Below, one piece after another: positions 1,451-30,700 of a stretch of 64,000 nucleotides of DNA (positions are counted from its first letter, which is position 1; each line of letters begins with the position of its first letter). Below the pieces are notes generated by a model that saw only the letters and a list, made by a program, of their open reading frames with translations, was not told where the DNA came from and searched no databases. Source of the DNA: Candidatus Omnitrophota bacterium (GTDB lineage Bacteria; Omnitrophota; Gorgyraeia; Zapsychrales; Fredricksoniimonadaceae). The stretch lies in assembly GCA_044225175.1 (NCBI GenBank), contig JBGAJA010000001.1:329178-393177 (forward strand). The letters are read 5' to 3'. The position numbers and the translations under genes were made by a program.

Positions 1451-1451
1451 T

Positions 1452-2708
1452 ATGAAAAGACAAAATCGAATAGGGTTTTCCCTTCTTTCCAGCGTTGTTC
1501 TGGTATTATTTTTAAGCATTGTTGCGTCTGCTGCTTTTATGAGAACGCAAATTCAATTAGGCTATAATAATCAACGCCTTTTGTCCCAACAGGCTTTTAA
1601 CGCCGCAGAGGCAGGTGTTCAAAGGGCTATTTATGAGTTGAGGCGTAATTCAAAGTGGCGTTCGGGAATGGAAGGACAGCCAGATTTTATTGATGTTCCT
1701 TTGAGTTATGGCGATAATCCACCTGTGGTGTTGGGGTATTATACGATTGAAGCAAAGAGTGCCGCCCAAGATTACAATTCTTTTCCATCGGTATGGGTAA
1801 AGGCCACAGGGAAAGATTCCAGTCAAAAGATCGTTCGGTCTATTTTAGCAAGGATCATTGTAGACAGCCCCACTAAGTTTTTTCTTTCAAGTTCAGGAGA
1901 TATAAGAATTGGCAGCGGTTCTACATTTGACAGCGATCTTCTAGGAAAAGATATTTATTTTGATGTTAATGACTCTTTAACAGGTGACCAAAAGAATATA
2001 AATATCAATGGAAAGATATTTTATTTGAGTAAGATCTATGGGGATGATAATCCTGCAGTTAAAATGGGGTCCAAAAGTGGAAAAATTCATTTCCCATCAA
2101 TAACTTTTACTGGAATTGATTTAGACCGTTATAGAACCATTGCTAAACAGTCGGATGGTCGATATATCAATGGGAATTTTACCTATAATGACAACATAGG
2201 TTTGGAGGAGTTAAGCGCCCTTAATGGAGTGGTTTTTGTTGAGGGTGATCTAACTATAGCGGGGAACATTAAAGATTCTATGCTTTTTGTAGCTTCAGGT
2301 AATATTTATATAAATAAAAGCATACTTTCTTCAGACAGTACCAACTCATCACAATTAGGCTTGTTGGCTAAGAAAAATGTTTTTATTACTGAAAATGCTC
2401 CATCAGACATTGAAATCAATGCTTTTATCATGGCTGATGGGGGAGAAGTCCCAAGTGATGAAGAGTATCATGGAGGAATTTTTCAAGCTTTGGGAGATAA
2501 GTTCTCGAAAGGTAAATTGACTTTTAATGGAGCGATGGCCTTGCGTGCTTCATATGAGCGCACAGCTGCAGATTTAAATGTGTATCAAACACGAGATTAT
2601 AAATATAATACCCAATTACGAGATAATCCTCAAATTCCTTTATTGCCTTCTTTCGCAAATATTGTCCATTGGCAGGAAATCAATCCTTCGGAACCAATCC
2701 CAGAATAG
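1452..2708 (+). CDS. PilX-like type IV pilus minor pilin / assembly protein
   Basis: N-terminal hydrophobic segment then 'QQAFNAAEAGVQRAIYEL', typical of the PilX N-terminal domain. Lies directly downstream of the pseudopilin. Confidence 0.55.
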   Translation: MKRQNRIGFSLLSSVVLVLFLSIVASAAFMRTQIQLGYNNQRLLSQQAFNAAEAGVQRAIYELRRNSKWRSGMEGQPDFIDVPLSYGDNPPVVLGYYTIEAKSAAQDYNSFPSVWVKATGKDSSQKIVRSILARIIVDSPTKFFLSSSGDIRIGSGSTFDSDLLGKDIYFDVNDSLTGDQKNININGKIFYLSKIYGDDNPAVKMGSKSGKIHFPSITFTGIDLDRYRTIAKQSDGRYINGNFTYNDNIGLEELSALNGVVFVEGDLTIAGNIKDSMLFVASGNIYINKSILSSDSTNSSQLGLLAKKNVFITENAPSDIEINAFIMADGGEVPSDEEYHGGIFQALGDKFSKGKLTFNGAMALRASYERTAADLNVYQTRDYKYNTQLRDNPQIPLLPSFANIVHWQEINPSEPIPE

Positions 2709-7725: not shown

Positions 7726-8718
7726 ATGGATAAATTTATTATTTTTGCATTAGGTTCAATGGTGGGAAGTTTCTTAAATGTTTGTATAGTCAGAATGCCT
7801 AAGGAAAAATCTATTGTTTTTCCTTCATCTCATTGTCCCAATTGTCAAAAACCAATTGAATGGTATGACAATATTCCTCTTATTAGTTGGATTTTTCTTT
7901 TAGGAAGATGTCGCTATTGTAAACAAAAAATAGCCTTTAGATATTGGTCGGTCGAATTTCTCACTGGTGTTGTCTTTTTGAGTTTTTATATGTATTTTGG
8001 TCCAAGTCCAGTTTTACCAGCTTATTTAGTTATGATGAGTTGTTTTATAGTGGCAACCTTTGTGGATATTGAGCATAGAATTATTCCAGATGAGATTTCT
8101 ATTGGAGGAATGTGGTTAGGACTTATTTTGAGTGCTTTTATACCACAGCTTCATACAAATACAGAGAATTTGCAATTAGGTGGTTTTTTTGCGGGTTTTA
8201 TAGTTCTTCTATGTTTATTTCTTGAAGGGATTTATCCTATATTTTGTAAACATTTAATGACAGAAGAAGAAAAGTATGATGATAAGCCGCTTAAACTACT
8301 TGTTTTGATTTCACTGATTATTGTTAATCTTGTTAATTATCATTTGATTCACGTTCCAGTATTCTTAGAAGGTCACTTGTACAGTTTAGCTTGCGGCCTG
8401 GTTGGATTTATTATTGGCGGTGGTTCTATTTATGCCATGGGACTCTTGGGGGATGTCATTTTTAAGAAAGAAAGTATGGGTGGGGGAGATGTCAAGCTAA
8501 TGGCTATGATTGGCGCATTTCTTGGGTGGAAATTAGCTATATTGGCTTTTTTCATCGCTCCATTTTTTGGAGGAGTTGTTGGAATCATTGAGAAAATTCG
8601 TACCAAAGACAGTACTATTGCCTATGGACCTTTTTTAGTGTTAGGATCATTAGTAAGTTTGTTTTGGGGAGAATGGATTATTCAATGGATCATAGCTGGA
8701 GGGTTCTATCGCCTATGA
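7726..8718 (+). CDS. pilD: Prepilin peptidase (A24 family)
   Basis: N-terminal 'CPNCQKPIEWYDNIPLISW...GRCRYCKQKI' zinc motif and multi-TM A24 peptidase body. Confidence 0.85.
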   Translation: MDKFIIFALGSMVGSFLNVCIVRMPKEKSIVFPSSHCPNCQKPIEWYDNIPLISWIFLLGRCRYCKQKIAFRYWSVEFLTGVVFLSFYMYFGPSPVLPAYLVMMSCFIVATFVDIEHRIIPDEISIGGMWLGLILSAFIPQLHTNTENLQLGGFFAGFIVLLCLFLEGIYPIFCKHLMTEEEKYDDKPLKLLVLISLIIVNLVNYHLIHVPVFLEGHLYSLACGLVGFIIGGGSIYAMGLLGDVIFKKESMGGGDVKLMAMIGAFLGWKLAILAFFIAPFFGGVVGIIEKIRTKDSTIAYGPFLVLGSLVSLFWGEWIIQWIIAGGFYRL

Positions 8719-12926: not shown

Positions 12927-13798
12927 AACAACATCTAGAGAAATTCCTCTCTTATCTAGAAGTTGAAAAAAATTACTCGTCTCACACCTTGCTTAATTAC
13001 AAACTTGATTTGCAAGAATTTGCTACATTCCTAGGTACAACTCCAGTCGAGCAATCTGACTACACTACGTTACGTCGCTTTCTAGCTCAAATGAGAACTC
13101 AGAATTTGAAGCCTCGCAGTGTTGCTCGTAAGCTTTCATCGCTTCGAAGTTTTTTTAAATACCTACAAAGAGAGAAAATTGTCTCTACGAATCCAGCTTC
13201 TTTATTGGTTACGCCAAAGTTAGATAAGCCCCTACCACATTTTTTAAGCGAACAAGAAGCCACTCAAATCATCGAATCCCCAGGAAAAAAAGACTCAAAA
13301 AAGGTGTCAGACACCTTTTTAAGAGATAAAGCTATCTTTGAGACTTTATACTCTACGGGAATACGTGTAAGTGAGCTTGTGGGTCTAGATATTGATGATG
13401 TGGATTTCATTAGTAATATTATCAGGGTTATGGGAAAAGGAAGAAAAGAACGTTTAGTTCCTATAGGGGATAAGGCCTTGGAAGCACTGCAGTTTTATAT
13501 AGACAAGCGAACTCAAAAAGGTAATATCCTTTTTCTAAATAAAAATTCCACACGTTTAACAAGCCGCAGTGTCTCCAATATCATTAATAAATATGTTCTC
13601 CAAGAAGCTATGGCTCAACATATCACTCCACACATGTTCCGCCACTCATTTGCAACCCATCTTCTCAACCGCGGAGCAGATTTACGATCAGTTCAAGAGC
13701 TATTGGGCCATGTAAATCTTTCTACAACGCAAATTTATACCCACCTGACTACCGATAAACTTAAGAAAGTCTATGACAAGGCTCATCCAAGGGCGTGA
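12923..13798 (+). CDS. Tyrosine recombinase, XerC/XerD family (housekeeping, translationally coupled to topA)
   Basis: Core-binding N-domain and catalytic 'HMFRHSFATHLL...LGHVNLSTTQIYTH' (R..H..R/H..Y). ATGA overlap with topA. dprA-topA-xerC synteny as in Firmicutes. Confidence 0.85.
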   Translation: MKQHLEKFLSYLEVEKNYSSHTLLNYKLDLQEFATFLGTTPVEQSDYTTLRRFLAQMRTQNLKPRSVARKLSSLRSFFKYLQREKIVSTNPASLLVTPKLDKPLPHFLSEQEATQIIESPGKKDSKKVSDTFLRDKAIFETLYSTGIRVSELVGLDIDDVDFISNIIRVMGKGRKERLVPIGDKALEALQFYIDKRTQKGNILFLNKNSTRLTSRSVSNIINKYVLQEAMAQHITPHMFRHSFATHLLNRGADLRSVQELLGHVNLSTTQIYTHLTTDKLKKVYDKAHPRA

Positions 13799-13882
13799 TT
13801 AATAAAAATTTATTAATTATTTACAATGATATTAAAATGCTTATTATCAGTAATTATTAATATATTTAAAAAAGGAAGATCA

Positions 13883-14113
13883 ATGAAAATCGTTAGCAGT
13901 AGAGAAATGCTAAGAGACCAAGATGTTTTAAAAGAAATTAATCGTTATAAATGGATCCAAAGTGAAAAAGAAGGATCAGATATTGGTTTTGAAAGAGCTG
14001 CAAGAGAGTGGATTAATTCTTATTCCAATTCATACCTTAATAGCCATCCCGGAAAAGCGACATCGATGTTAATTACCAGTTTTTTTAACACAGAAATTCA
14101 TATTAAATATTGA
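13883..14113 (+). CDS. Small conserved hypothetical protein, paralog of 32712-32948
   Basis: Shares 'L.D..V..EINR.KW..SE..G.DIGFE.AA..W' with the ORF at 32712. AAAGGAAG RBS precedes the ATG at 13883. Confidence 0.55.
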   Translation: MKIVSSREMLRDQDVLKEINRYKWIQSEKEGSDIGFERAAREWINSYSNSYLNSHPGKATSMLITSFFNTEIHIKY

Positions 14114-14144
14114 TTTTAAATCAAATTTGTTCAATATTTTGTAT

Positions 14145-14180
14145 TGACAATTTCCTTTTTATTTGTAATATATAACTCAT
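14145..14180 (+). promoter_or_regulatory. Putative sigma70-type promoter (TTGACA, 17 bp spacer, AATATA/TATATA) in the long AT-rich leader
   Basis: TTGACAatttcctttttatttgtAATATAtaact lies about 240 nt upstream of the 14421 operon. Confidence 0.35.
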
Positions 14181-14309
14181 ATTGATGATAAATCAATAAT
14201 TCGATTCCCCATCGAATAAAGAAGTTATTCAAATAATCTCCCCAAAGCAACAACGTTTAATGAAATCTCCAAAAGTTTTAGAATTTTATGAAACATATCA
14301 AAATAATCA

Positions 14310-14336
14310 AATTGTGTCCGTAGTGCTGACACAATT
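14310..14336 (+). promoter_or_regulatory. Perfect 9-bp inverted repeat in the 5' leader of the pilin-collar operon
   Basis: AATTGTGTC-cgtagtgct-GACACAATT. No trailing U-tract, so an operator or RNA structure is more likely than a terminator. Confidence 0.4.
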
Positions 14337-14420
14337 GAGTTGGACAAACCATTTGCTCATTCTTTCAAAAACAAAGAAACTGCATGAATATTTCATGTTA
14401 GGTCAAGGAGGTTTGCAAAT

Positions 14421-15320
14421 ATGAAATACTATTTTAAGTTTCAAAAAGCTTTTTCTTTAATTGAAATGTCCATTGTCATGGCAGTTATGGCGGTTTTAGC
14501 TTCTTCGGTTGTTCCGATTGCGATTCGATCTGTGGAGGTGAGGGCTGGGGAAAAAACGGCATTAGAAATGGCTATGATTCAAGAGGCTAGTCAAAATTAT
14601 TTGATTGATAATCATTTATGGCCTTCTGATATAGCAGAATTGCAGGCGAAAGGTTATTTGAACCCTGACTGGATACCTCATAATCCGTGGCATAATTCTA
14701 ATCATAATAATTTGTACGTACTTTCTGCTACGAATTCACTTTTGACAGTATCAACAGATGTTCCTCAGCAATGGTCTAATCTGGTAGCCAGTCATTTGCC
14801 CGGCATTACTATTATTTCTTTGGACAATGGTTATAGCACGGTTTCAAGCAGTATATCCGTCTCAGATAGACACAATAGTGTTCCTACTGGAACAATTATT
14901 CCTTGGTCAGCACCGGTAGATAAGATCCAGGAAGGGTATCTTTTGTGCGATGGCCAAAGTATTAGTCGTGAGAATTTCTCTGATCTTTATTCAGTTATAG
15001 GTACTACATATGGCAGCGATGATACCTCGACTTTTAAAGTTCCTGATTTAAGAGGAAGAACAATAGTTGGATTTAATCATCTGGATGAAGATTTTGGTAC
15101 GCTTGGTCAAGCGGGAGGTGCTAAATCTCACTCTCATATCACTGACGGAAATACGGACTCTGTTCAGATTCGAAATGGGGGGAATTGGAGAATAGACGAT
15201 AACTCAGGTGGGAGTGATTACAATGTTATTGATCCTCATAATCATCACGTGAGGATCCAAAGTGATTCTCAAAAGAATCTATCTCCCTATGTAACAGTGC
15301 ATTTTGTCATTAAAACATAA
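14421..15320 (+). CDS. Fusion protein: type IV pilin-like N-terminus + phage tail-collar (PF07484-type) C-terminal domain
   Basis: N-terminal 'FSLIEMSIVMAVMAVLASSVV' prepilin-like helix with Glu+5. C-terminal 'GYLLCDGQSISRENFSDLYSVIGTTYGSDDTSTFKVPDLRGRTIVG' collar signature. GGAGG RBS. Confidence 0.65.
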   Translation: MKYYFKFQKAFSLIEMSIVMAVMAVLASSVVPIAIRSVEVRAGEKTALEMAMIQEASQNYLIDNHLWPSDIAELQAKGYLNPDWIPHNPWHNSNHNNLYVLSATNSLLTVSTDVPQQWSNLVASHLPGITIISLDNGYSTVSSSISVSDRHNSVPTGTIIPWSAPVDKIQEGYLLCDGQSISRENFSDLYSVIGTTYGSDDTSTFKVPDLRGRTIVGFNHLDEDFGTLGQAGGAKSHSHITDGNTDSVQIRNGGNWRIDDNSGGSDYNVIDPHNHHVRIQSDSQKNLSPYVTVHFVIKT

Positions 15321-15340
15321 ACGATTTTTAGAGAAATCGT

Positions 15341-16123
15341 ATGGTATTTATCCTTATATTCGTTCTGATTCTTTCATCCAATGCTTGGTCTCAGGGAGAT
15401 TTTGATGAACAGAGATCTACGTTATCAAAGTTAGCCGATGAAAGTTGTATTGGAATAGTGCCCTTGGGAGTTTGTCCAAAGGCGAAACATGTGGTTGGTG
15501 CTTTAGTATTATTAAGGGAACCAAGTTTAATCATTCAAACAATTAAGAAAAGCGGGGCTTCTTCCGGAGGCTTAAACGATGGGAATTTACAATTTAATGA
15601 GGTTCGTGTGCTTAATAATCCTTTAGCCAGAAGCTTTCATCAAGCTATTTGTTCGGATCTTCCGGATACTTCGCCCGAAATTTATTATATTTCAGAGCCA
15701 GATGCTCTTGGTTGGAAAGAAGGGAGCTTTGAAAGAAATCTTCCCCAGAGTAGGGTTGCCTCTCAAATAGCCTCTCAATGCTTTCGATTGCCTTTGGGGG
15801 CTCAAGACCAATGTATGAAAACTTGGGGGACACTTTATCCACGGACAGGTTTTATAGTCTCTTCAAGTGAGCCGATGGCTTCAGCCGTTAGCGCAGTCCG
15901 AGCGGTCAGTATTGCTAAAGATCCAGCTCCAGCCCATATTGTTGAATCAAGGTTGCAGTATTCTTTTAATATCAAAGAAGATAAGTTACAAATGATTCAG
16001 CCTGTAACCTCGGTTTCTTGTATCTCTATTGGACAAAACCCTTCAAGTTGGGAAAAAGGCAAAACATCAAAGGATGGTCAGTATGTCTGGTTTTATTGGA
16101 ATTGGCGTCTGTGTTGTATTTAG
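15341..16123 (+). CDS. TraU-like Cys-rich periplasmic protein (F-type conjugative-pilus assembly family), short form
   Basis: Signal peptide. Cys-containing blocks CIGIVPLGVCP, EIYYISEPDALGW, CFRLPLG..C..W and C-terminal 'SSWEKGKTSKDGQYVWFYWNWRLCCI' match TraU blocks as I recall them. Confidence 0.4.
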   Translation: MVFILIFVLILSSNAWSQGDFDEQRSTLSKLADESCIGIVPLGVCPKAKHVVGALVLLREPSLIIQTIKKSGASSGGLNDGNLQFNEVRVLNNPLARSFHQAICSDLPDTSPEIYYISEPDALGWKEGSFERNLPQSRVASQIASQCFRLPLGAQDQCMKTWGTLYPRTGFIVSSSEPMASAVSAVRAVSIAKDPAPAHIVESRLQYSFNIKEDKLQMIQPVTSVSCISIGQNPSSWEKGKTSKDGQYVWFYWNWRLCCI

Positions 16124-16142
16124 AATTGTGGTGTTTGGGTTG

Positions 16143-16448
16143 ATGATTTCAATCTCCTATGCTGCAAATCCTTACAAAATGGGTGAGGTGGATTATTTTC
16201 AACAGCACAACTCTTCAGATTCTTCACAAATGAATCAAAAGTCTTCCTTTGATTTCAGAGAACCTTCTGTGACTGCAGAGGGACAAATTTCTTACTATAC
16301 TCCACCATCAGCTGTTTCCAATTTGCTTGCCAATCCTACATCTGAAAATGCCAGGGCTTATATAAATTGGCAGAAACAAAAAGTGCAAAGGATTATTAAA
16401 GCTCAAGAAATGATTGAGAAAGTAAGCTTAGAAATGACAAAGAGATGA
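16143..16448 (+). CDS. Hypothetical small secreted/membrane-anchored protein
   Basis: ORF overlaps the TraU-like gene. Start chosen at MISISYAANPY. An earlier in-frame ATG at 16074 is also possible. TM/signal segment present. Confidence 0.35.
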   Translation: MISISYAANPYKMGEVDYFQQHNSSDSSQMNQKSSFDFREPSVTAEGQISYYTPPSAVSNLLANPTSENARAYINWQKQKVQRIIKAQEMIEKVSLEMTKR

Positions 16449-17677
16449 TCTATATTCTTATGATTTGTTTATTTCTTCCGAAGTTGTCTTGGGGAGATAT
16501 TTTTTCTAAACCCTCCGAAAGTCCTGATTTAGATCATTTTTTAACCCAAGATGTCAATAATTCTTATTATCGAAATGGGTATGAATATAGTCCTTATGAA
16601 ACGACTAGTCATGCGTATGAGTTTGAAAGACAAAATACTCTAGGGTATAGTTACTATGATTTTCATCGAAGTTTGAAAAACTTTATTGCTAAACCCGATG
16701 AGGATATTGATGAGCTTATGAATAAGCTTTCAGCGCCATCTTCCAGGCTATTATTTTGGCAGTATAGCTCACCTTCCGTCGCTGATTTATACAAGAATTT
16801 GAATACAATTGGACATCTAAGACTGGCACTCCGATATCAACAATATGAAGATATGGAAAAAGCCGTCAATGATCCCTTAGTTAAGCTTAGAAAACAAGCT
16901 GTTTTAGACTGTATCAGGCGGGACTCTAATGATGATATTGAGGTTTCTTTAAGTGATTGCTTTGACAATTTACATAATAAAGGAGTAGAACCTTTTAAAG
17001 AATTAAATGAACCAGGTGATGGTGAAGACTTTATTAAGGGTAAGATTAATATCACAGAAAGGGTGTTAGATCGGGTTAATTTAGATCATCAGGATGTAGG
17101 AGCTGTTAAGAAGATTACCCCAAGGGTATTTATAGATAAGAATTCTGTGTTTGTGAAGGCTCCTCAATTTAGAAGTAGAGAATTGATCAATCAATATAGA
17201 GATGAGTTTATGGGCAAGCTTAAAGGAATAGTTGAGGAATATAGAAAAACGAAGACTTTTAAAGCTCAGGAAGCAGCTTCACTCTCAGTTTTTGGGGTAC
17301 CTTTAACAGAAGGTCAAATCAAGAATATGGCCATACTTGATGAAACTGCTGCATATTTAGCGGTAAACAAGGTTTCTTTCAATCTCGCCTATCTAAAGAC
17401 TATTGATCAGTTTCTTTTAGCTTCAGAAATGTTAGGTCGTGTGATGTCTCACCCTGCTATTCAACCAGGATATAAATTATTGTTAAAAAGTAGTCTGGAT
17501 TACATTTCCACAGAAATTATTGTTTTGAGAGAAGAAAAGAATCGTTTGAATGACTATGCAGATGCAATGCGTACTATTCTAGATCAGGCGGACCAATTAA
17601 GGATCAAGACCATTAAGTCTATTAGAGATAAATCTCAAGATTCTCAAGAGAAAGGATTGTTTAGGTTAAATCCATGA
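16445..17677 (+). CDS. Hypothetical secreted protein (410 aa), same operon
   Basis: Signal peptide MIYILMICLFLPKLSWG. No recognisable domain. Stop overlaps the yraN start. Confidence 0.5.
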   Translation: MIYILMICLFLPKLSWGDIFSKPSESPDLDHFLTQDVNNSYYRNGYEYSPYETTSHAYEFERQNTLGYSYYDFHRSLKNFIAKPDEDIDELMNKLSAPSSRLLFWQYSSPSVADLYKNLNTIGHLRLALRYQQYEDMEKAVNDPLVKLRKQAVLDCIRRDSNDDIEVSLSDCFDNLHNKGVEPFKELNEPGDGEDFIKGKINITERVLDRVNLDHQDVGAVKKITPRVFIDKNSVFVKAPQFRSRELINQYRDEFMGKLKGIVEEYRKTKTFKAQEAASLSVFGVPLTEGQIKNMAILDETAAYLAVNKVSFNLAYLKTIDQFLLASEMLGRVMSHPAIQPGYKLLLKSSLDYISTEIIVLREEKNRLNDYADAMRTILDQADQLRIKTIKSIRDKSQDSQEKGLFRLNP

Positions 17678-18048
17678 GGAATCAATCATTAGGTCAGATG
17701 GGAGAGGTTCTTGCTTGTCAATATCTTTTAGGCAAAGGATATATGATTTTGGACAAAAATTTTCGCAATAAGCTTGGAGAAATAGATTTAGTGGCCAAAG
17801 ATGGAAAAACTATCTGTTTTATTGAGATTAAAACGAGAAGATCTTCTGAATATGGAGAGCCTTTTTTGGCTGTAAATTCGACAAAACAGCATAAAATGGT
17901 TCAATTAGCCTTAAGTTATCTCAAATATAAATTCCGTAGCACAGAAGTTTTATCACGATTTGATGTAATTTCTATTCATTTTAAACAAGAAGAGCCTATT
18001 CTGAACCATCTCGTCAACGCCTTTGATTTAAGCTATTTAAGTCATTGA
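17674..18048 (+). CDS. yraN: YraN family (UPF0102) predicted endonuclease
   Basis: 'GE.LA..YL...GY.IL..N.R...GEIDLVA.DG....FIEVK.R' is the canonical YraN pattern. Confidence 0.85.
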   Translation: MRNQSLGQMGEVLACQYLLGKGYMILDKNFRNKLGEIDLVAKDGKTICFIEIKTRRSSEYGEPFLAVNSTKQHKMVQLALSYLKYKFRSTEVLSRFDVISIHFKQEEPILNHLVNAFDLSYLSH

Positions 18049-18114
18049 CAAAGCAAATTTTATCCAGTAAACTCGCAACATATTTATAAACCTAGATTTT
18101 TTAAGGAGGATTGG

Positions 18115-18288
18115 ATGGAGAAATTATCTTTCTACGATGTAAAAACCAAAGGAAAATTTGAAACAGATGATTATTCTGTTAAAGAAAAAAGTGGACGCTT
18201 TTTCGCTGTTGCAAAATCTCCAAAAGGCACACATGAGTGCTGGCGCGTATTAAGCAAAGACCAAGCTGCCAAAATGAAGAAGAAATAA
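18115..18288 (+). CDS. Small basic protein (57 aa), not in the ORF track
   Basis: Strong RBS TTAAGGAGGattggATG. MEKLSFYDVKTKGKFETDDYSVKEKSGRFFAVAKSPKGTHECWRVLSKDQAAKMKKK. Confidence 0.45.
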   Translation: MEKLSFYDVKTKGKFETDDYSVKEKSGRFFAVAKSPKGTHECWRVLSKDQAAKMKKK

Positions 18289-18294
18289 GCGGGA

Positions 18295-18708
18295 GTGGTT
18301 TCTATCCGAAGTAAAGCATTGACTTCCAAACAATTAGCTAACAAAATTGCTCAACTGGCTAGCGAAAAGAAGGCCCAGAATATCGTGATTCTTGATATGC
18401 GAGGACTGGTCAATTTCTGTGATTATTTTGTCATATCGACTGGAACTTCCGATCGTCAAGTCAAGGCTATAGGGCAAAGTATTGATGAGGGTTTAAGTAC
18501 TCTTGGAATTAAAGCCAATTTTGGGCGAAGTTCTAAAGGTTTAACGCCAACTGAGCTTAATGATGGTGTGGGTGCTTGGGTTCTTTTGGATATGGGAGAT
18601 GTAGTTGCCCACATTTTTGAGTCAAGTGCTAGAGATTTTTATGGTTTAGAACATCTCTGGCAGGATGCTCCATCGGTCGAATATAAAGAACGAAAAAAAT
18701 CCAAATAA
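18295..18708 (+). CDS. rsfS: Ribosome silencing factor RsfS (Iojap)
   Basis: 'DMRG...DYFVI.TG.S.RQV.AI...I' Iojap pattern. Exact start uncertain. Confidence 0.8.
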   Translation: MVSIRSKALTSKQLANKIAQLASEKKAQNIVILDMRGLVNFCDYFVISTGTSDRQVKAIGQSIDEGLSTLGIKANFGRSSKGLTPTELNDGVGAWVLLDMGDVVAHIFESSARDFYGLEHLWQDAPSVEYKERKKSK

Positions 18709-18721
18709 CCTTTAAGGATTA

Positions 18722-18768
18722 GCCCCCACTGCTTCGCTTTGCGAAGCAAAGCGGTGGGGGTTTTCTTA
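18722..18768 (+). terminator. Rho-independent terminator after rsfS
   Basis: About 18-bp GC-rich stem CCCCCACTGCTTCGCTTTGC/GAAGCAAAGCGGTGGGGG with G-U wobbles, followed by TTTTCTT. Confidence 0.75.
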
Positions 18769-20453
18769 TGTTTTCTCTTCTAAGACAACAACTTCAAGAT
18801 TTAATTCAGAATTCTCTCCCTGTCCTACCAGCGGGGCTTTTAGAAATAGGGAGTATTCCACCCATTTTAATTGATATTCCAGCCGATATAGCCCATGGCG
18901 AGTTCACATGTAACATAGCACTTCAATTGAGTAGAGTTTTAAAGAAGAATCCAATGATCACTGCCCCTGAGATTCTTTCTAAAATCCAAGAAAATCTTCA
19001 AAAGCATCCTTTAAGGGGATCTTTTTCAAAAATTGAAGTCAAGCAACCTGGCTTTATTAACTTTTATCTTTCACCACAGGGTTTTTATGGCATTTTAGAA
19101 TCTGTGTTAGAGAAAAAAGATGACTATGGGCAATCTAATTACGGAAATCAAACGCCTTTTTGTTTGGAGTTTGTCTCTGCCAACCCGACTGGTCCATTGA
19201 CAGTAGCCCATGGACGTCAGGCTGCGGTGGGAGATAGTTTAGTTAACATTTTAAGTGCAGTTGGGTTCCAAGCTCAGAAAGAGTATTACGTTAATGATGA
19301 AGGCAATCAGATTAATATTCTTGGAAGAAGTATTCATTATAGAGCTCAGGAACTTTTAGGGGCTAAAGTTGAATTTCCAGAAGATCATTATCAAGGTGAA
19401 TATGTTCGAACAATGGCAGCTGAACTTTTGAAAAAGAGACATATTTCATCTTTAGCGGATCTTGAGAAGGTTGAGCCCCAAGATTTTCGCCAGTTTGGTG
19501 TAGATTATTTAATGGCTATGATCAAGAACGATCTGGAAGATTTTGGGGTCAATTTTGATACATGGTCTTACCAAAGTAAGATTGCAACCAATAGCGCTAT
19601 TGAAGACTTGATTAAAGATTTTAAGAGTAAAGATTATGTTTACGAAAATGAAGGTGCTTTATGGTTTAGATCCACAAACTGGAAAGATGATAAAGATCGA
19701 GTTGTTAAGAAAACTTCTGGTGAATACACATATTTAACTCCAGACATTGTTTATCACAAGGACAAATTTGCCCGTGGTTTTAAACGTATTGTTAATATTC
19801 TAGGGCCTGATCATCATGGCTATATTCCTCGTATTAAGGCAGCAGCTGCAGCCCTTGGGCATTCTGTGGATGATTTAGATGTAGTGATTGTGCAGTTGGC
19901 GACTATTTATCGGGATGGTAAGCCGGTATCCATGTCTACAAGACGAGGAGAATTTATTACTCTTAGAGAAGTGATTGATGAAGTGGGAAGGGATGCAGGC
20001 CGATTTTTCTTTTTGATGCGTCAAACCAATGCCCATTTAGATTTTGATTTAGAACTAGCTAAGAAAACAAGTTCTGAAAATCCTGTTTATTACATCCAAT
20101 ATGCCCACGCACGTATTCATAGTATTATTCGTAAAGCTCAAGAAGAATCCAAATTAATTCCACAGCATAAAGATTTTGCTCTTCTTAAGGAAACAGAAGA
20201 AATGGATATTATGCGTAAAATTGCTTTGTATCCTGAGGTCTTGATTGCTTGCGCTAAACAATTAGATCCATTTGCTTTGGTTCGATATCTGCAAGAATTA
20301 TCAGGTTGTTTTCATAAATTTTATGATTCTCACCGTGTTTTAGATGAGAATAAAGAACTTTCCAGTGAACGTTTAGGTTTAATTGAGTCTGTCCGAATTA
20401 TATTAGGAAGTGGCTTGAAATTACTAGGTGTTACTACTCCGGAGAAAATGTGA
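18768..20453 (+). CDS. argS: Arginine--tRNA ligase
   Basis: Class I aaRS with 'SANPTGPLTVAHGR' (HIGH region) and the C-terminal DALR anticodon-binding domain. Confidence 0.95.
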   Translation: MFSLLRQQLQDLIQNSLPVLPAGLLEIGSIPPILIDIPADIAHGEFTCNIALQLSRVLKKNPMITAPEILSKIQENLQKHPLRGSFSKIEVKQPGFINFYLSPQGFYGILESVLEKKDDYGQSNYGNQTPFCLEFVSANPTGPLTVAHGRQAAVGDSLVNILSAVGFQAQKEYYVNDEGNQINILGRSIHYRAQELLGAKVEFPEDHYQGEYVRTMAAELLKKRHISSLADLEKVEPQDFRQFGVDYLMAMIKNDLEDFGVNFDTWSYQSKIATNSAIEDLIKDFKSKDYVYENEGALWFRSTNWKDDKDRVVKKTSGEYTYLTPDIVYHKDKFARGFKRIVNILGPDHHGYIPRIKAAAAALGHSVDDLDVVIVQLATIYRDGKPVSMSTRRGEFITLREVIDEVGRDAGRFFFLMRQTNAHLDFDLELAKKTSSENPVYYIQYAHARIHSIIRKAQEESKLIPQHKDFALLKETEEMDIMRKIALYPEVLIACAKQLDPFALVRYLQELSGCFHKFYDSHRVLDENKELSSERLGLIESVRIILGSGLKLLGVTTPEKM

Positions 20454-24745: not shown

Positions 24746-27700
24746 ATGCTTAAGATTTATTGCTTCCGAAGGACTCTGTGCCTGGGACTAATTTTTGCTT
24801 TTTTGCTTAATACCATTGGCCCATTGCCAGCTTATGCTCACGAACCTCGCCTCCGGAACCTCGTAGGTTCCGAAGGCCAGGTTCCGCAAGGTTTGCCTAA
24901 GCCTGGGGTCATGGTCCATCTAAGCGCCCCTGTAAATCCCCCTTTGCTCAAAGGAATCAAAGTCCATCCAGATAACCCTTTTAGGTTCGATTTTATCCTG
25001 GATACAGGGTATGTCTCCGTCGAGGATACAGATAATTTAAGGCAAGAATCCAGCCGTCTAATCAAGTACTTTTTAGCCTCTTTAACCACCCCAGAAGCCG
25101 ACCTATGGGTGAACCTAAGCCCCTATGAGAAGAATCGTATAGTTCCCGAAAGCTTTGGCCAAACCGAGATGGGCCGAGACCTCCTAGCCCAGGACTACAT
25201 GCTCAAACAAATCACAGCCAGTTTAATGTACCCAGAAGATGGGGTAGGAAAGAGGTTTTGGAAGAGAATCTATGAAGAATCGGCCAAAAGGTATGGAACA
25301 ACCAATATTCCGGTCAATACCTTCAATAAAGTATGGATAGTCCCTGAGAAGGCAGTAGTGTATGAGAATGCCAAGGCAGGGACGGCGTATGTGGTGGAAT
25401 CCAGGTTGAAGGTGATGTTGGAGGAGGATTATGTATCTGTGCAGAAACATTCAAAAACATTGTCGTCCCCGAATGTTTTAGTCGGGGACCTAGGACACGA
25501 GGGTGCTAGATTCCCGACAAAAGCATTCGGGAATGACAAGGATGTTAATATAGGTAATCAAATCATCCGCGAAATCGTCATCCCCGAATTAACCAAGGAA
25601 ATCAATGAAGGATCGAATTTCGCCCAATTGCGTCAGGTCTATAACAGTCTGATCCTGGCCACCTGGTACAAGAAGAAAATTAAAGATTCAATCTTTACGA
25701 AGGTTTATGTGGATCGGAATAAGGTTGTGGGTCTTGGGTATATGGGAGGTGAGCCACAACAAATCTACCAACGCTACCTGAATGCCTTCAAGAAAGGTGT
25801 TTACAATTATATCAAGGAAGAATCCGATCCAATTTCCCAGAAACGTGTCACAAGAAAATATTTTAGCGGAGGCACTACATTTAACGATCAAGCCATGAAT
25901 GCAGTATTTCATACTACCCAAGATGGTACAAAAATTATTAAGATGGCAATTGATAATTCAGTTATTGTTCAGGTTGGCATAAAAGATTTTGCTATGGCTA
26001 GTACTAAACTCAAATCTCCGTCTGATATATTGGTTTATACACCTGAAAATGGAGCCACTGTAAAAAAGGGTAGAATAACTGGAGCTAAGCCAGTTGAAAT
26101 TTTTCCCAACGCGATCTGGGCAACAAGAAATATATCTCAACTTGTACAAGGTAATGAATTTCTTGTAGATATTCCATTAACCAAGGATAAAAAATTTCGT
26201 CTTTTAGGAGTGGATTGGAATTTAAGAGGAGGATCTGAAGGAGAAAGAATAGTAGCGCAGTTTAGAAAAGAGGACGGAAATTATGTTTTAATAACTGCTT
26301 ACAATGAAGCAGGAGAAGTAATTTACGAAAAAGATATTGATTCAAAGATTGAACAAAACAAAGAAGCAAAAGTTTATACTCCTGGGTCAGGAGCAAAGAT
26401 TGAAAATGGAAAAATTGTAGGAAAACCCACTGATAAATTTCCTCAAAACGCAGCCACGCGAAGACTATTAGAGCTAAATTTAGAAGAGTTTTATTTAGAT
26501 GTCAAACTCAATAGTGGAGGACAACTAAATCTTTTTCAAGAGAATTGGTGGGGCAAGAAGACAGAGTATGCAGACCAAAGAGTAAGTGTTCATTTTAAGA
26601 AAGAAAAAGGAGCGTACCAACTAGTAGCTGCTTATGACAAAGACGGAAATCTCATTTATCCTATTTCTGAAGATGAACAAATCCAATTATTTATTCCTTC
26701 TGATAAAACTCGTATTGAAAATGGAAAAGTTATCGGTACGCCTAGTCAAACATATTCTAATAAACATACCGCCATTAAATCTATTGATCTTCCGGAGTTT
26801 TATATAAAACTCCGTCTTAATCAATACGGTGGGCTTAATATGTGGGGACAACAAATGGCTCCCCGAAAAGGCTATGAAAATGCTGAAGTTCTCGTTCATT
26901 TCAAAAAATTTGAAGATACATATACCGCCATAGCTATTTATGACGCAAATGGAGAACAAATCGAACAGGAAGCCCCTGAACAAGTCGTTATTTATATTCC
27001 CAAAGAAGGGACAAGGTTAGAGAACGGAAAGATTGTTGGTAAAGCTTCACGTACATATGACAGTAGAATTTGGGCGGCCCGTGAATTAATGACTGATATC
27101 GCAAATTCACCAGAAGAATTTTACACTGAATTGACTTTAACCGATAAGGGCGGCTTTTCTTTCTTTAGTAAATGGTGGGCATCAAAAAAAGGTTACGAAA
27201 AGGCAAAAATTACAGCTCACTTTCGAAAAGTTAAGAATGAGTATGATCTGGTCGCTGTATATGATTCTAATGGTCAAGAAATCTATAGCCAAAATAAACA
27301 ACAAGAAGGGAAGATAGAAATTTTTACCCCTCAAAATGGTTCGCATATCAAAGATGGATTGCTTCAAGCCGGTCAACCTGAAACTGTTTTGTATCATGCA
27401 AGATCTGTACCAACCTATCTTGAAGATCACCCTCTTGAAGAATTTTTTGTAAGAACACATTTGGATGATAAGGGTGGTTTTTATCTAATGGGAGAGCATT
27501 GGTGGACGAGTAAAAGTGGTTCTGAAAATGTAGAGGTGGTCGTCCACTTTAAGAAAAATGAAGAAGGACAATATGAGTTGGAAGCTGCTTATGACCAAAA
27601 AGGTCAAGATTTAACCGTTGAAAAAGAACCAATAAAGATCTATGCCTCTAGAAATGGAGCAACAATTGTTCAAGGGAAAATATCAGGACAACCTGTTAGT

Positions 27701-30700
27701 CAATTTCCTAAGAAGACGCAAGCGTTACGCTTATTGAAGCAGTTGGATAGTGAAGATATTTATCTAGAAGTCACTCTTAGTAATGATGGTGGTTTTCTTA
27801 TTAGTTCTTATCGTAAATTAGCTTTGCCAGGCTATGAAAATACAAAAGTATTACTTCATTTTCAAAATAAAAATTCAAAAAAGAACCTTATCAATGTATA
27901 TGACAGCCAAGGCAATGTTATCTGGGGAGAAATTTACGATAGTAAAACAAGAGTTTATATCGCAGACAATGAAGTAAAATTAAATGAAGGAAAGGTTGTT
28001 GGTCAACCGGCAGAAACATTTACTACTCAAAGGGATGCTATTAAATTTGTTACTGCAAGAAAAATTAAGGAATTTTATTTAACTACTCCACTCACATCAC
28101 AGGCAGGTATTTACTTAGGCAGAGATTTTTGGCAATCAGATAATATAAGAAAACACCAGAACTCACTTGCTACTCTCCATTTTCGTTTAAATGAAGGCTC
28201 CCAATATGAACTTGTAGCGAGCTATGATCAAGATGGTAGGCGGTTGAACTTAATAAAAGTTAAATCTGATGAGATTATTGAAATTCACACTTCCGAAGGT
28301 GGATCAAAAATAGAAAATGGGTTTATTGTAGGAGAACCAATCGAGATATCTTCTAGTAAACTTGCCGCACAGCAGATTGTATCAGCAATGAGTCACTCCG
28401 ATGTTTTTGTAAAAATGCGTATAGGAGAAATGGGCAAAATTAGTTTTATGGGGCATTGGGCAAGCAGGTCTAATTCTGCCAATAAAGAAGTGCATTCGCA
28501 TTTTAAAAAACAAGATATGAGATATGTGTTGGTTGCTGCCTATGAGGCTGGTCAGAAAATTTATCCGAAAGAAGAGAACGAACAGGATAAGATCAGTATT
28601 TATAGCGCACATACAGGGGCTGTAATTGAGGAAGGGAAAATTAAAGGTCAACCTATTGAAACATTTAGTGACAAGATTCAAGCGTCATTGACTATACAAT
28701 CAATGGGATTGACAGACTTTTTTGTAAAAATGCGTTTGGATGGACAGGGTAAGCTATATTTTCTTGGAAGACATTGGTGGGGAGGCAAGAAAGGTCATGA
28801 AGATGCAGAGGTTTTGATACATTTTAAAAAGAGTCCAGAAAAAGGTTATGAATTAATTGATGCCTATGATAATCAAGGTAATTTAATCTACCCTACTGGA
28901 AAAAGAGATCCTTATAGTGTAGAAAGAAAAAGATTTAACGTAATGATTGGGGCCGAAGAAGCTCAAAAATTACTAGAAACATTAGGGCTGGAGGCCACAT
29001 TTGGACTTCTTTCACGGGCACATGGCTTCACCCCAACATTCCTTGCTCAAACACTAACGGGTTATGCCGAGAAAATACAAAGTGAAGGTAATCAGTTTGG
29101 GTATGCTTCAAATCGTAGTTTTTCATTTGTTCAAGCGCGACAATCCAACGTTTTTAGTAAAATTGAGCCTGATAAGCTGGATGTAGTTGTCGAGACATTG
29201 ATAAGAAGCATGTATAAGGATGTTGTTGAAGATAATCATTTTCTTAATGTTTTAAGAGAGCAAAGTGAAAATCCTTCCAATGGAGACATGCTGCAAAAAG
29301 CTTATAAACAAGTAGCTGATTATTATGACCATCAATTAAAAATCGAAATGGGAGGCATTGATGAAACAGCTATTTTACCGAAACTATACCAGAGGATTGG
29401 CGCGCAGTTTTTAATTGATAGAAAGCATGCCATTCTAGCTGATGAACCTGGTTTAGGAAAAACACTAGAAGCGATCATGGCAGTTGTGAATGTGCCGGAA
29501 TTTGACAAAGATGTAAGAGATGCGGGTTATCGAGAAGGTGAAATGATAGAGCCAAAAGAGAAGATTTTAATTATTGCACCTAAAAGAGCAGCTGATCGTG
29601 TATGGAAAAGAGAAATCCAAGCATATACAACGGGTCGTTTAAAGGTTGAAGTAGTTAACCGATCAAAAATTCGTAGCCGTTCAACAGTAGATAAAAACCC
29701 CGAATTAAATCTAAAAAGAAGATTTGATAGAATCAAGCAGGCCCAAGTTCTTATTGTTAATCCTTATGCAATTGCAGGAGAAGATGGTAACGGATTGCTT
29801 TTAAGAGAACATCTTAAGCAGTTTAAATATAAGGTCATCATATTGGATGAAGCTCATAATATTCGTAATGAAAGTACATTGACTGATGCTGTCCGTGAAT
29901 TTGATGCTGAATATAAATTCGCTTTGACTGCGACTCCTTTGGTTGGACAAACAGTTGCAAAATTATTTAATTTACTTCAATGGCTATATCCAGAACGGTA
30001 TAAAGATAAATGGAACTTTTCAGTTAAATATGCTGGCAGAGAGAAGGCATTTTTATTAAGACAAGAGTTGCGGCCATTTTTGTTAAGACGAACAAAAGTG
30101 GATGTTACAGACATGCCTTTAAAGAATTATGTTAACGTTCCCGTAAGCCTTACTGATGAAGAAAGACAATTTTATTTAGAGGTTGCAAATTACTTCTCAA
30201 TCTGGATAAAAAGTTCTATTAGACAAAATGATCCAAAATATTATTTGAAGATTCTTTCTCAACTTTCTCGACTACGCTTAGCAGCCCTCAATACGGGATT
30301 GATTATTCGCCTTCAAAATAATGGAGAAAAGATTTTTGCTTATACTGGAGGAAGCTTCACTCTGGGCAATCGTAAGTATAGATTTACTAAAGAAAAGGAA
30401 GTTATTGTTGGTTTGAAGGATGAAGAGGGGCATGAATTTCGTTTTGAAAAAGGGAAGTCAGGTACTCAAGTTACTATTGATAAGAAAGTTTATGAAGTTC
30501 AGGTTAAGGATAATTTAAATCCAAGCCGGTATTTAGCTATTGATAAAATTATAGAGGAGAAAATAGCTAAAGGGGAAAAGGTTATTCTAAATACGAATTA
30601 TCGGGAAGTTGTTTTTCAATTAGCGGCTCGGTATAAACATTATGGGGTGAATTATGCATTTGGTGATATGACAAGCTCCCAAGTTGATAGTGAAATTGAA

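What the first reader, a model, noticed from the sequence alone, without database searches (positions are those of the whole stretch)
15341..17677. TraU-like protein plus two secreted unknowns without the rest of an F-type T4SS
15341-16123 shows the Cys spacing and C-terminal block of TraU. This is my recollection of F-plasmid TraU, not a database hit. It is about 70 aa shorter than F TraU. No other F-type transfer genes are visible nearby. It is co-oriented and tightly packed with the pilin-collar gene, a ~100-aa secreted protein and a 410-aa secreted protein. That suggests a pilus/fibre biogenesis module assembled from heterogeneous parts.
Basis: partly seen in the sequence, partly recalled or inferred. 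Interest (0 to 1): 0.6.

Follow-up and report, generated by a model that had tools for sequence, protein, structure and literature searches.

The report
Chromosomal remnant of a conjugation pilus operon
Four tightly packed genes (a pilin fused to a phage tail-fibre head, plus relatives of the conjugation proteins TraU, TraF and TraH) are the end piece of a mobile-element transfer operon; an Omnitrophota lineage has kept it in its chromosome under purifying selection, with no conjugation machine in the 64-kb window.

Summary
15341-16123 passes Pfam TraU (72 bits, cut-off 26.5) and no type IV secretion core gene lies in the 64-kb window. The two "secreted unknowns" are not unknowns.

- **410-aa protein:** a divergent TraH/TIGR03755-family member. 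Its family profile matches proteins at E=1e-62 that themselves pass Pfam TraH.
- **~120-aa protein:** the N-terminal domain of a TraF-like protein that has lost its thioredoxin half (E~1e-22).

So the block is pilin-tail-fibre + TraU + TraF(N) + TraH.

In 47 metagenomic loci these genes lie in the same order. They follow a type IVb pilus operon (secretin, ATPase, platform, PilS-like pilin), which itself follows a VirB4/TraC ATPase gene wherever the held DNA reaches that far. Cargo or unrelated genes follow in the three loci examined.

In 11 loci (about eight distinct lineages, annotated Omnitrophota where named), only the end piece remains. It always sits directly before yraN-rsfS-argS. The ORFs are intact, dN/dS is 0.09-0.30, and the group is monophyletic.

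My reading is that this is a domesticated fragment of a conjugative element. It probably works as a cell-adhesion device with a type IV pilus encoded elsewhere. The homology and history are well supported; the function is inference. Novelty: new variant of a known kind.

The parts
14421..15320 (+). PilV-like minor type IV pilin (299 aa): prepilin leader (KA|FSLIE, Glu at +5), GspG-like pilin domain, then a phage tail-fibre 'collar' receptor-binding domain and an HxH-containing C-terminal stretch
   Evidence: Family matches:
- Pfam N_methyl 25 bits (cut-off 21.2) and Collar PF07484 70.6 bits (cut-off 24).
- TIGR02532 27.4 bits (cut-off 16.3).

Solved-structure matches:
- By sequence: cyanophage long tail fibre 8kec (E=1.6e-6), T4 gp12 1pdi, GspG 5wda.
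- By fold, from the AF2 model (pLDDT 74): 8kec, T4 gp12 1ocy, gp37 2xgf, pilins and pseudopilins.

Context: a homologous gene sits directly, or one small ORF, upstream of traU in the element-type loci that reach that far.
15341..16123 (+). TraU-family periplasmic protein (260 aa) with a signal peptide and eight Cys invariant in its close family; it carries a lineage-specific deletion of about 38 aa
   Evidence: - Pfam TraU 72.1 bits, cut-off 26.5.
- TIGR03756 61 bits, below its cut-off of 188.
- BLASTP against F TraU, E=3e-6.
- Family alignments A1 and A6.
- dN/dS 0.09-0.10.
16083..16448 (+). Small secreted protein (121 aa; predicted cleavage SYA|ANPYK): the N-terminal domain of a TraF-like protein, lacking the thioredoxin half
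   Evidence: - The start coordinate follows the gene call in L001.
- A profile of six orthologues matches residues 5-117 of the 242-aa and 54-131 of the 249-aa CxxC thioredoxin proteins of L008 and L010, at E=5e-23 and 2e-22.
- Those two proteins give sub-threshold hits to Pfam TraF and TIGR02740/TIGR02739.
- Their family aligns colinearly to the F TraF thioredoxin domain by hhalign, E=0.0017.
- dN/dS 0.27-0.30.
16445..17677 (+). Divergent TraH/TIGR03755-family protein (410 aa) with a signal peptide, two invariant Cys (C156, C172), mostly helical
   Evidence: - The protein has no direct Pfam hit; its only direct match is TIGR03755 at E=0.008.
- Its family profile A2 finds 148 cluster representatives among 1.84 billion proteins.
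- Of 117 full-length hits, 67 match TIGR03755 and 29 match Pfam TraH.
- P0027 (E=1.8e-62 to the profile, full length) passes Pfam TraH at 44 bits against a cut-off of 25; P0044, P0054 and P0057 also pass.
- AF2 model pLDDT 63.
- dN/dS 0.18.
17674..18048 (+). yraN (UPF0102): a housekeeping neighbour whose start overlaps the stop of the TraH-like gene. It marks the fixed downstream boundary of the block in all chromosomal loci.
   Evidence: Pfam UPF0102 92.7 bits. The TraH-yraN adjacency holds in all 11 chromosomal loci.
7726..8718 (+). Prepilin peptidase (PilD-like): a candidate processing enzyme for the pilin-collar protein. It is not part of the block.
   Evidence: Pfam A24_N_bact 120 bits and Peptidase_A24 72.5 bits. 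That it acts on this pilin is inference.

Best explanation
**What it is.** Window 14421-17677 is one four-gene operon. It is the chromosomally fixed distal end of a conjugative-element transfer operon.

**The ancestral arrangement.** It is still seen in 47 metagenomic loci: VirB4/TraC ATPase, then a type IVb pilus set (secretin, PilB-like ATPase, PilC-like platform, PilS-like pilin), then a large PilV-like minor pilin with a phage tail-fibre head, then TraU, a DUF1525-like thioredoxin, a TraF-like protein, and TraH.

**What happened here.** In one lineage (annotated Omnitrophota where named), only pilin-collar, TraU, TraF (reduced to its N-terminal domain) and TraH remain. They are wedged in front of yraN and have been inherited vertically since.

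**Proposed working (inferred, not shown).**
1. The pilin-collar protein is cleaved by the prepilin peptidase.
2. It is placed as a trimeric tip adhesin on a type IV pilus built by machinery encoded elsewhere in the genome.
3. The Cys-containing periplasmic proteins TraU, TraF(N) and TraH form the same interaction node they form in F-like systems. That node docks or stabilises the adhesin at the outer membrane.
4. The result is attachment to another cell.
For: **Shown: identities.**
- Direct family matches for the pilin-collar and TraU proteins.
- TraH membership through strong intermediates.
- TraF(N) identity.
- Tail-fibre head.

**Shown: the ancestral operon.**
- The same gene order recurs in L008, L009, L010 and about 45 further loci.
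- A true TraC/VirB4 ATPase lies upstream (Pfam P-loop_TraG 145 bits).
- Cargo or defence genes lie after TraH.

**Shown: domestication.**
- 11 loci have the block alone between housekeeping genes, always abutting yraN. None of them has pilus-machine or VirB4 markers.
- Synteny persists down to 36% TraH identity and 29% TraU identity.
- Chromosomal copies form one clade with long branches, with an element-type locus as sister.
- dN/dS is 0.09-0.30.
- Flanking genes are 76-85% identical between genomes where block proteins are 35-51% identical.

**From the literature.**
- TraF and TraH form a central node of the F-specific complex and contact the outer-membrane core; TraU contacts other F-specific proteins (bioRxiv 10.1101/2023.12.05.570194).
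- TraU and TIGR03755 proteins are essential in ICEclc (PMC10018362).
- Type IVa pili are near-universal in Omnitrophota and are proposed to mediate host attachment (PMC10066038).
Against: - No experiment or expression data exist for this block.
- I could only see 64 kb of the genome, so a T4SS or type IVb pilus elsewhere is not excluded.
- The adhesion role and the TraU-TraF(N)-TraH complex are extrapolated from distant F-plasmid proteins (23% identity or less).
- The pilin has Ala rather than Gly at position -1 of the prepilin site in the window, L002 and L007, which may slow cleavage.
- The window TraU lacks about 38 residues that nearly all relatives keep.
- The tree is neighbour-joining without bootstrap, and its outgroups do not form one group outside the ingroup: two of them cluster with the element-type loci L013 and L017.
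- dS is near saturation.
- The link of the small protein to canonical TraF rests on sub-threshold matches.
Confidence: 0.55

Rival explanations
1. The block is a displaced but ordinary part of a complete conjugative T4SS (with or without a type IVb pilus) whose other genes lie elsewhere in the same genome. It works in DNA transfer as TraU, TraF and TraH do in F-like and ICEclc-like systems.
For: - TraU, TraF and TraH homologues were previously reported only in the MPF_F and MPF_G conjugation classes (PMC4027160).
- The nearest non-chromosomal relatives are embedded in VirB4-containing transfer operons.
- Only 64 kb of an 820-kb contig could be inspected.
Against: - The block sits in the same housekeeping slot in about eight divergent lineages, with no T4SS or pilus-machine gene within 10 kb in any of the 11 chromosomal loci, or within the 64 kb of the window.
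- Mobile elements rarely keep a fixed chromosomal position across such divergence.
- Two surveys of Omnitrophota genomes do not mention TraU or TraH; one also has no mention of conjugation or type IV secretion, and the other mentions conjugation machinery only to note its absence from a different element.
Confidence: 0.15
2. The block is a decaying, functionless remnant of an integrated conjugative element.
For: - Clear signs of reduction: TraF has lost its thioredoxin domain.
- The DUF1525-like thioredoxin gene is kept only in some lineages (L002, L091/L092, L012).
- The window TraU has a 38-aa deletion.
- A DUF1016 nuclease gene fragment lies just upstream.
Against: - All four ORFs are intact in every chromosomal locus, with conserved overlapping starts and stops.
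- dN/dS is 0.09-0.30.
- Cysteines and motifs are invariant across 35-50% identity.
- A neutral remnant would not survive that much divergence.
Confidence: 0.07
3. One reading: a pilus or fibre biogenesis module newly assembled in this genome from unrelated parts (a phage collar domain, a pilin, a stray TraU and two novel secreted proteins).
For: The pilin-collar protein is itself a domain fusion of pilin and phage tail-fibre parts. The genes are tightly packed.
Against: All four genes, including the pilin-collar fusion, already lie adjacent and in the same order in element-type loci. The two 'novel' proteins belong to TraF-like and TraH families. The combination predates the chromosomal lineage.
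Confidence: 0.05
4. TraU, TraF(N) and TraH act here only as dedicated periplasmic folding or export helpers for the bulky trimeric pilin-collar protein. They form no lasting envelope complex and have no role in cell contact themselves.
For: - The element-type relatives carry two thioredoxin-fold proteins between TraU and TraH.
- F-like systems use TrbB and other thioredoxin-fold proteins for folding Cys-rich Tra proteins (10.1101/2023.12.05.570194; PMC10018362).
- The four genes are always retained together.
Against: - The redox-active CxxC domains are exactly what has been lost in the window.
- The pilin-collar protein of the window has a single Cys (C176, invariant in its family), so no intramolecular disulfide needs shuffling.
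- F TraH and TraF fractionate with an outer-membrane complex (Arutyunov 2010, as cited in PMC4027160).
Confidence: 0.13

Closest known systems
F-specific periplasmic proteins TraU, TraF and TraH of F-like (MPF_F) conjugation systems
   Same: - The same three families are present, in the same relative order as on F (traU ... traF ... traH).
- All are Sec-exported.
- TraU is Cys-rich.
- TraF-like relatives have the F TraF layout: an N-terminal region plus a C-terminal thioredoxin fold of about 245 aa.
   Different: - No TraC/VirB4, TraB/K/V, TraE/L, TraG, TraN, TraW, TrbC, TraA pilin or coupling protein in the window.
- TraU has 8 Cys, not 10. TraH has 2 conserved Cys, not 7.
- TraF is reduced to its N-terminal domain.
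- Sequence identity to F proteins is 23% (TraU) or undetectable pairwise.
- The partner is a type IV (GFxxxE-class) pilin, not the F-type TraA pilin.
- The block is chromosomal and vertically inherited.
ICEclc / ICEHin1056-type (MPF_G) block: DUF1525 thioredoxin - TraU-like IceU (TIGR03756) - TIGR03755 protein
   Same: - The TraU-like protein's best NCBIfam match is TIGR03756.
- The 410-aa protein's only direct hit is TIGR03755, and 67 of 117 relatives hit it.
- A DUF1525/TIGR03757-like thioredoxin lies beside TraU in L010; L002 and L008 carry a homologous ORF in the same place.
- Both ICEclc proteins are essential for transfer (PMC10018362).
   Different: - All scores are far below the NCBIfam cut-offs (61 vs 188; 15 vs 270).
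- ICEclc has the block between VirB4 and a TraG_N/VirB6 protein, inside a full T4SS.
- Here there is no T4SS, and a TraF-like gene lies between TraU and TraH.
Large tip-located minor pilins of type IVb pili (R64 PilV, ETEC CofB, Vibrio cholerae TcpB). This comparison is from my own knowledge, not tested here.
   Same: - A prepilin with a pilin domain followed by a large C-terminal binding domain.
- In the element-type loci it is the last pilin gene of a secretin/ATPase/platform/PilS-pilin operon, the position PilV holds in R64.
- The tail-fibre fold implies a trimer, as for CofB and TcpB.
   Different: - The binding domain is a phage tail-fibre collar with an HxH region, not a lectin-like or shufflon-encoded domain.
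- There is no sequence similarity to PilV, CofB or TcpB in any search here.
- In the window the rest of the type IVb operon is absent.

Membership tests
TraU (Pfam PF06834) | Score at or above the Pfam gathering cut-off over the conserved C-terminal two thirds | tested here: met
   72.1 bits against a cut-off of 26.5; residues 69-259 align to profile positions 92-304 of 306. The orthologue in L002 gives 99.8 bits over positions 39-304.
TraU (Pfam PF06834) | Orthology to F TraU (NCBIfam NF010297) or to ICE TraU-like TIGR03756 | tested here: not met
   NF010297 gives 17 bits against a cut-off of 298. TIGR03756 gives 61 bits against a cut-off of 188. The protein is a superfamily member, not an equivalog of either.
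TraH (Pfam PF06122) / TIGR03755 | Direct match of the protein to the family model | tested here: not met
   No Pfam TraH hit at E<1. TIGR03755 gives E=0.008, 15 bits against a cut-off of 270. hhalign of the close family against F TraH alone is not significant.
TraH (Pfam PF06122) / TIGR03755 | Homology through intermediates that do pass the family model | tested here: met
   - Profile A2 hits P0027 at E=1.8e-62 over its full length, and P0044 at 2e-46.
- P0027, P0044, P0054, P0057, P0066, P0068 and P0104 all exceed the Pfam TraH cut-off of 25 bits.
- 29 of 117 relatives hit TraH and 67 of 117 hit TIGR03755.
- The wide family aligns to F TraH with hhalign probability 94.6%, E=6.6e-8. This is partly circular, because the family includes TraH-positive members.
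TraF / TraF-like (Pfam PF13728, TIGR02739, TIGR02740) | Thioredoxin-fold C-terminal domain preceded by an N-terminal region of about 120 aa, with a family-model match | tested here: inconclusive
   - The window protein has no thioredoxin domain and no family hit.
- It is homologous (E~1e-22) to the N-terminal domain of 242- and 249-aa proteins.
- The thioredoxin halves of those proteins score just under the TraF cut-off (21.6 and 20.6 bits against 23).
- They align colinearly to F TraF at hhalign E=0.0017.
Type IV pilin / pseudopilin (class III signal peptide) | N-terminal G/A|FxxxE cleavage-methylation motif followed by a hydrophobic helix | tested here: met
   N_methyl 25 bits (cut-off 21.2) and TIGR02532 27.4 bits (cut-off 16.3). 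The sequence is KA|FSLIEMSIVMAVMAVLA. The model shows a helix at residues 13-64 and a pilin-like fold.
Phage tail collar / tail-fibre receptor-binding domain (PF07484) | Family-model match and fold similarity to solved tail fibres | tested here: met
   70.6 bits against a cut-off of 24. PDB sequence hits 8kec and 1pdi. Foldseek hits 8kec, 1ocy, 5iv5 and 2xgf. Trimer formation itself was not testable here.
F-type (MPF_F) or GI-type (MPF_G) conjugative T4SS as a system | VirB4/TraC ATPase plus envelope core (TraB/K/V or equivalents) and a coupling protein at the locus | tested here: not met
   No hit in the 64-kb window or in any of the 11 chromosomal loci, using HMMs that detect VirB4 in the element-type loci. 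The rest of the genome could not be searched.
Type IVb pilus system | Secretin, PilB-like ATPase, PilC-like platform and major pilin encoded with the minor pilin | tested here: not met
   Present in 47 element-type loci but absent from all chromosomal loci and from the window. The window does hold a prepilin peptidase and another pilin gene.

The most novel reading that the evidence does not exclude
TraU, TraF and TraH are not intrinsically parts of a type IV secretion channel. They form a self-contained envelope module that presents or anchors a surface adhesin, and it can work with a type IV (GFxxxE-class) pilus. An Omnitrophota lineage has exapted exactly this module, together with a tail-fibre-tipped pilin, for attachment to host or prey cells. 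That would make it the smallest natural system in which the long-unresolved role of the F-specific proteins could be defined.
Probability: 0.3. Interest if true: 0.75.

Novelty: new variant of a known kind. Interest (0 to 1): 0.58.

Why it matters
- **An open question becomes testable.** TraU, TraF and TraH are required or important for F-like and ICEclc-like conjugation, yet their mechanism is unknown (PMC10018362; bioRxiv 10.1101/2023.12.05.570194). A profile survey of conjugation systems found them only in the MPF_F and MPF_G classes (PMC4027160). Here they persist under selection with a single obvious partner, a pilin carrying a phage tail-fibre head, and without any secretion channel nearby. 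That points to a function tied to surface adhesin or pilus-tip handling rather than to DNA translocation.
- **A case of domestication.** It documents a conjugative-element fragment being domesticated in a phylum thought to live attached to other cells.
- **An undescribed element family.** It uncovers an abundant family of elements in which a type IVb pilus operon sits between VirB4 and TraU.

Tried and rejected
**Searches that gave nothing**
- Pairwise BLASTP of the small protein against F TraF: no alignment.
- hhalign of the 13-member and 45-member TraH-like families against single F TraH: not significant. Intermediates were needed.
- Foldseek of the TraH-like model against PDB: nothing below E=0.4.
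- The afdb50 library was not available.
- Profile searches of PDB sequences with the TraU and TraH families: no solved relatives.
- tblastn of the intermediate P0027 against PLSDB plasmids: no match.
- Rfam on 13000-19000: nothing.
- Promoter-like and terminator-like sites were not above the shuffle expectation.

**Technical failures**
- Alignment A5 was too divergent to seed a metagenome scan; the TraU alignment A6 was used instead.
- AP001918 was not in the collections; NC_002483 was used.

**Literature**
- Searches for Omnitrophota with TraU, and for TIGR03755/TIGR03756, found no description of this block.

**Ideas rejected**
- That TraU/TraF/TraH are accessory parts of the type IVb pilus only. 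The element-type loci also carry VirB4, so that cannot be claimed.
- That yraN came with the element. It is absent after TraH in the element-type loci examined.
Full report
**1. What is in the sequence**

The region lies in a run of + strand housekeeping genes: aroK, dprA, topA, xerC, then the block, then yraN, rsfS, argS, recJ. GC content is about 37% throughout, with no compositional break.

The block has four co-oriented ORFs:
- 14421-15320 (299 aa)
- 15341-16123 (260 aa)
- 16083-16448 (121 aa; start taken from the gene call in the identical Logan contig L001)
- 16445-17677 (410 aa)

traU overlaps the small gene by 41 nt. The small gene overlaps the 410-aa gene by 4 nt, and the 410-aa gene overlaps yraN by 4 nt. 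By inspection, the last three proteins begin with Sec-type signal peptides. The first has a prepilin leader (KA|FSLIE).

**2. The TraU claim**

The 260-aa protein passes Pfam TraU at 72.1 bits against a cut-off of 26.5. The match covers the C-terminal two thirds of the model. It aligns to F TraU at E=3e-6.

It does not reach the NCBIfam equivalog cut-offs for F TraU or for the ICE TraU-like family TIGR03756. It is therefore a divergent superfamily member.

About 38 aa of this is an internal deletion shared only with one close relative (P0002). All other relatives, about 300 aa long, keep that segment.

**3. The two 'unknowns'**

*The 410-aa protein.*
- It has no significant direct family hit; its only match is TIGR03755 at E=0.008.
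- A profile of 13 close homologues (A2) was scored against 1.84 billion cluster representatives and found 148 proteins at E<=1e-3.
- Of 117 full-length hits, 67 match TIGR03755 and 29 match Pfam TraH.
- Checked individually, P0027 matches the profile at E=1.8e-62 over its full length and exceeds the Pfam TraH gathering score (44 bits against 25). P0044, P0054, P0057, P0066, P0068 and P0104 also exceed it.
- The protein is thus a remote TraH/TIGR03755-family member by strong transitive homology. Direct comparison to F TraH alone fails.
- TIGR03755 is the ICEclc protein Orf55476, encoded next to TraU-like IceU. Both are essential for transfer (PMC10018362).
- Guglielmini et al. reported TraH homologues only in MPF_F and MPF_G (PMC4027160).

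*The small protein.*
- A profile of six orthologues matches the N-terminal ~115 residues of 242- and 249-aa proteins from L008 and L010, at E=5e-23 and 2e-22.
- The C-terminal halves of those proteins are CxxC thioredoxin folds. They give near-threshold hits to Pfam TraF and TIGR02740 'TraF-like', and a colinear hhalign match to F TraF at E=0.0017.
- The window gene therefore encodes a TraF-like protein that has lost its thioredoxin domain. I treat membership in TraF proper as inconclusive.

**4. The pilin gene**

The 299-aa protein passes the prepilin N-methylation models and Pfam Collar. Its sequence matches a cyanophage long tail fibre, T4 gp12 and GspG in the PDB.

The AlphaFold model is confident for residues 10-215. 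It has Foldseek hits to tail fibres (8kec, 1ocy, 2xgf) and to pilins and pseudopilins.

The low-confidence stretch 216-289 carries HxH motifs. That such stretches fold only in the intertwined trimers of phage fibres is my own knowledge, not a test done here.

**5. Where else the block occurs**

*Chromosomal type.* A genome scan found relatives in MAGs labelled Candidatus Omnitrophota and 'Planctomycetales'. Those loci, and contigs carrying further homologues, show the same four genes directly before yraN-rsfS-argS-recJ. Upstream lies xerC, or in L003 rnhB. L002, L091/L092 and L012 keep an extra thioredoxin ORF between TraU and the small gene; the L002 copy carries a CSWC motif.

*Element type.* A metagenome scan with a TraU alignment gave 80 more loci. 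I annotated all held loci with HMMs built from session sequences.
- 47 loci share this order: VirB4-like, secretin, three unknowns, T2SSE ATPase, T2SSF platform, PilS-like pilin, small ORF, pilin-collar, (ORF), TraU, thioredoxin, TraF-like, TraH. Most contigs are truncated; the VirB4 end is seen in about 19 loci.
- Precomputed Pfam calls confirm secretin, T2SSE, T2SSF, PilS, TraU and TraH.
- The upstream ATPase is a TraC/VirB4 type (P-loop_TraG 145 bits).
- After TraH, L060 has AbiEii, DUF6577, FRG, a methyltransferase and SpoVG, and L008 has SpoVG and DUF932. In L013 a TatC gene follows.
- These are conjugative elements with an embedded type IVb pilus operon.

*The contrast.* Eleven loci have the four-gene block with housekeeping markers. 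No locus has both kinds of marker.

**6. History and selection**

In a neighbour-joining tree of TraH-like proteins, the chromosomal copies form one long-branched clade. The element-type locus L009 is its sister, and most element copies form a separate short-branched clade. The tree has no bootstrap, and two of the four outgroup sequences cluster with the element-type loci L013 and L017.

The chromosomal slot is conserved down to 36% TraH identity (L091) and 29% TraU identity (L083).

| Proteins compared with the window | Identity |
|---|---|
| TopA, XerC, ArgS (flanks) | 76-85% |
| Four block proteins | 35-51% |

Nei-Gojobori dN/dS against the two closest fragments:

| Gene | dN/dS |
|---|---|
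| TraU | 0.09-0.10 |
| TraH-like | 0.18 |
| Small gene | 0.27-0.30 |

dS is near saturation, so these ratios are if anything overestimates.

The simplest reading is one old capture of the end of a transfer operon, followed by vertical inheritance under purifying selection and stepwise loss of the thioredoxin functions.

**7. How it probably works**

Shown: the identities, the origin, the conservation, and the absence of channel or pilus-motor genes nearby.

Inferred:
- The pilin-collar protein is cleaved by the prepilin peptidase (one is at 7726-8718). It is then mounted on a type IV pilus. Type IVa pili are near-universal in Omnitrophota and are proposed to mediate host attachment (PMC10066038).
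- TraU, TraF(N) and TraH form the interaction node described for F-like systems, in which TraF and TraH connect to the outer-membrane core (bioRxiv 10.1101/2023.12.05.570194; Arutyunov 2010, as cited in PMC4027160).
- Because only these four genes were kept, and kept together, I infer that they are functionally interdependent and give cell-to-cell adhesion.

I put about 0.8 on the identity and history part, and about 0.35 on the adhesion mechanism.

**8. Comparison and novelty**

The block works most like the F-specific or ICEclc TraU/TraF/TraH group combined with a PilV/CofB-type tip pilin. As a system it fails membership of MPF_F, MPF_G and type IVb pili, because the defining machines are absent from the locus.

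I found no description of it in the literature searched. NCBI annotates the pilin gene only as 'tail fiber protein' or 'prepilin-type' protein, and the TraH-like gene as hypothetical.

I rate it a new variant of a known kind. It is interesting mainly as a natural minimal context for proteins whose mechanism is unresolved, and as a case of mobile-element domestication.

**9. Limits**

- Only 64 kb of the genome was visible.
- There are no expression or structural-complex data.
- The tree method is simple.
- The TraF link is sub-threshold.
- The AFDB fold library was unavailable.

Noticed in passing
L008, L013-L090 (e.g. L060:1-13400, L014, L050): An abundant, very similar family of metagenomic elements carries a complete type IVb pilus operon inserted between a TraC/VirB4 ATPase gene and TraU-thioredoxin-TraF-TraH, with cargo and defence genes after TraH. 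I found no description of this T4SS/T4bP arrangement in the papers searched.
   Followed up: partly
window 14260-14421 (and ORF 13826-14113): A 54-codon ORF between xerC and the pilin gene matches the middle of DUF1016_N (E=3.7e-6, truncated). It looks like a remnant of a DUF1016 nuclease gene. This ~620-bp spacer is absent from L002, L005 and L007, where xerC and the pilin gene are about 130-140 bp apart.
   Followed up: partly
window 15341-16123, between residues 70 and 71: The window TraU and its closest relative P0002 lack a segment of about 38 aa (PGDYVIAEYG...TGIKPLTVTS) that every other chromosomal and element-type relative keeps.
   Followed up: partly
window 24746-32662 and 60607-62928: A 2638-aa protein has a signal-peptide-like N-terminus and an SNF2/helicase core (residues ~1548-2038). 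Its first ~150 residues are clearly paralogous to the N-terminus of the 773-aa protein at 60607-62928, which has no Pfam hit. An exported-looking N-terminus on an SNF2 helicase is odd.
   Followed up: no
L093:1-3137: A variant locus has pilin-collar, thioredoxin, TraF-like and TraH-like genes but no TraU between them.
   Followed up: no
L002:19381-19842: A second, shorter ORF matching the pilin-collar profile lies about 6.5 kb downstream of the block in the 'Planctomycetales' MAG. No such second copy was seen in the window.
   Followed up: no
window 980-2708 and 7726-8718: A separate prepilin gene (980-1450), an adjacent 418-aa gene with no family match, and a prepilin peptidase (7726-8718) lie upstream. 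The window starts inside a gene with Big_1 and CarboxypepD_reg domains. This may be the edge of another pilus or adhesin locus.
   Followed up: partly
window 44110-44505: A small ORF with a Bro-N domain (38.9 bits) sits among housekeeping genes. It may mark a phage- or element-derived insertion.
   Followed up: no
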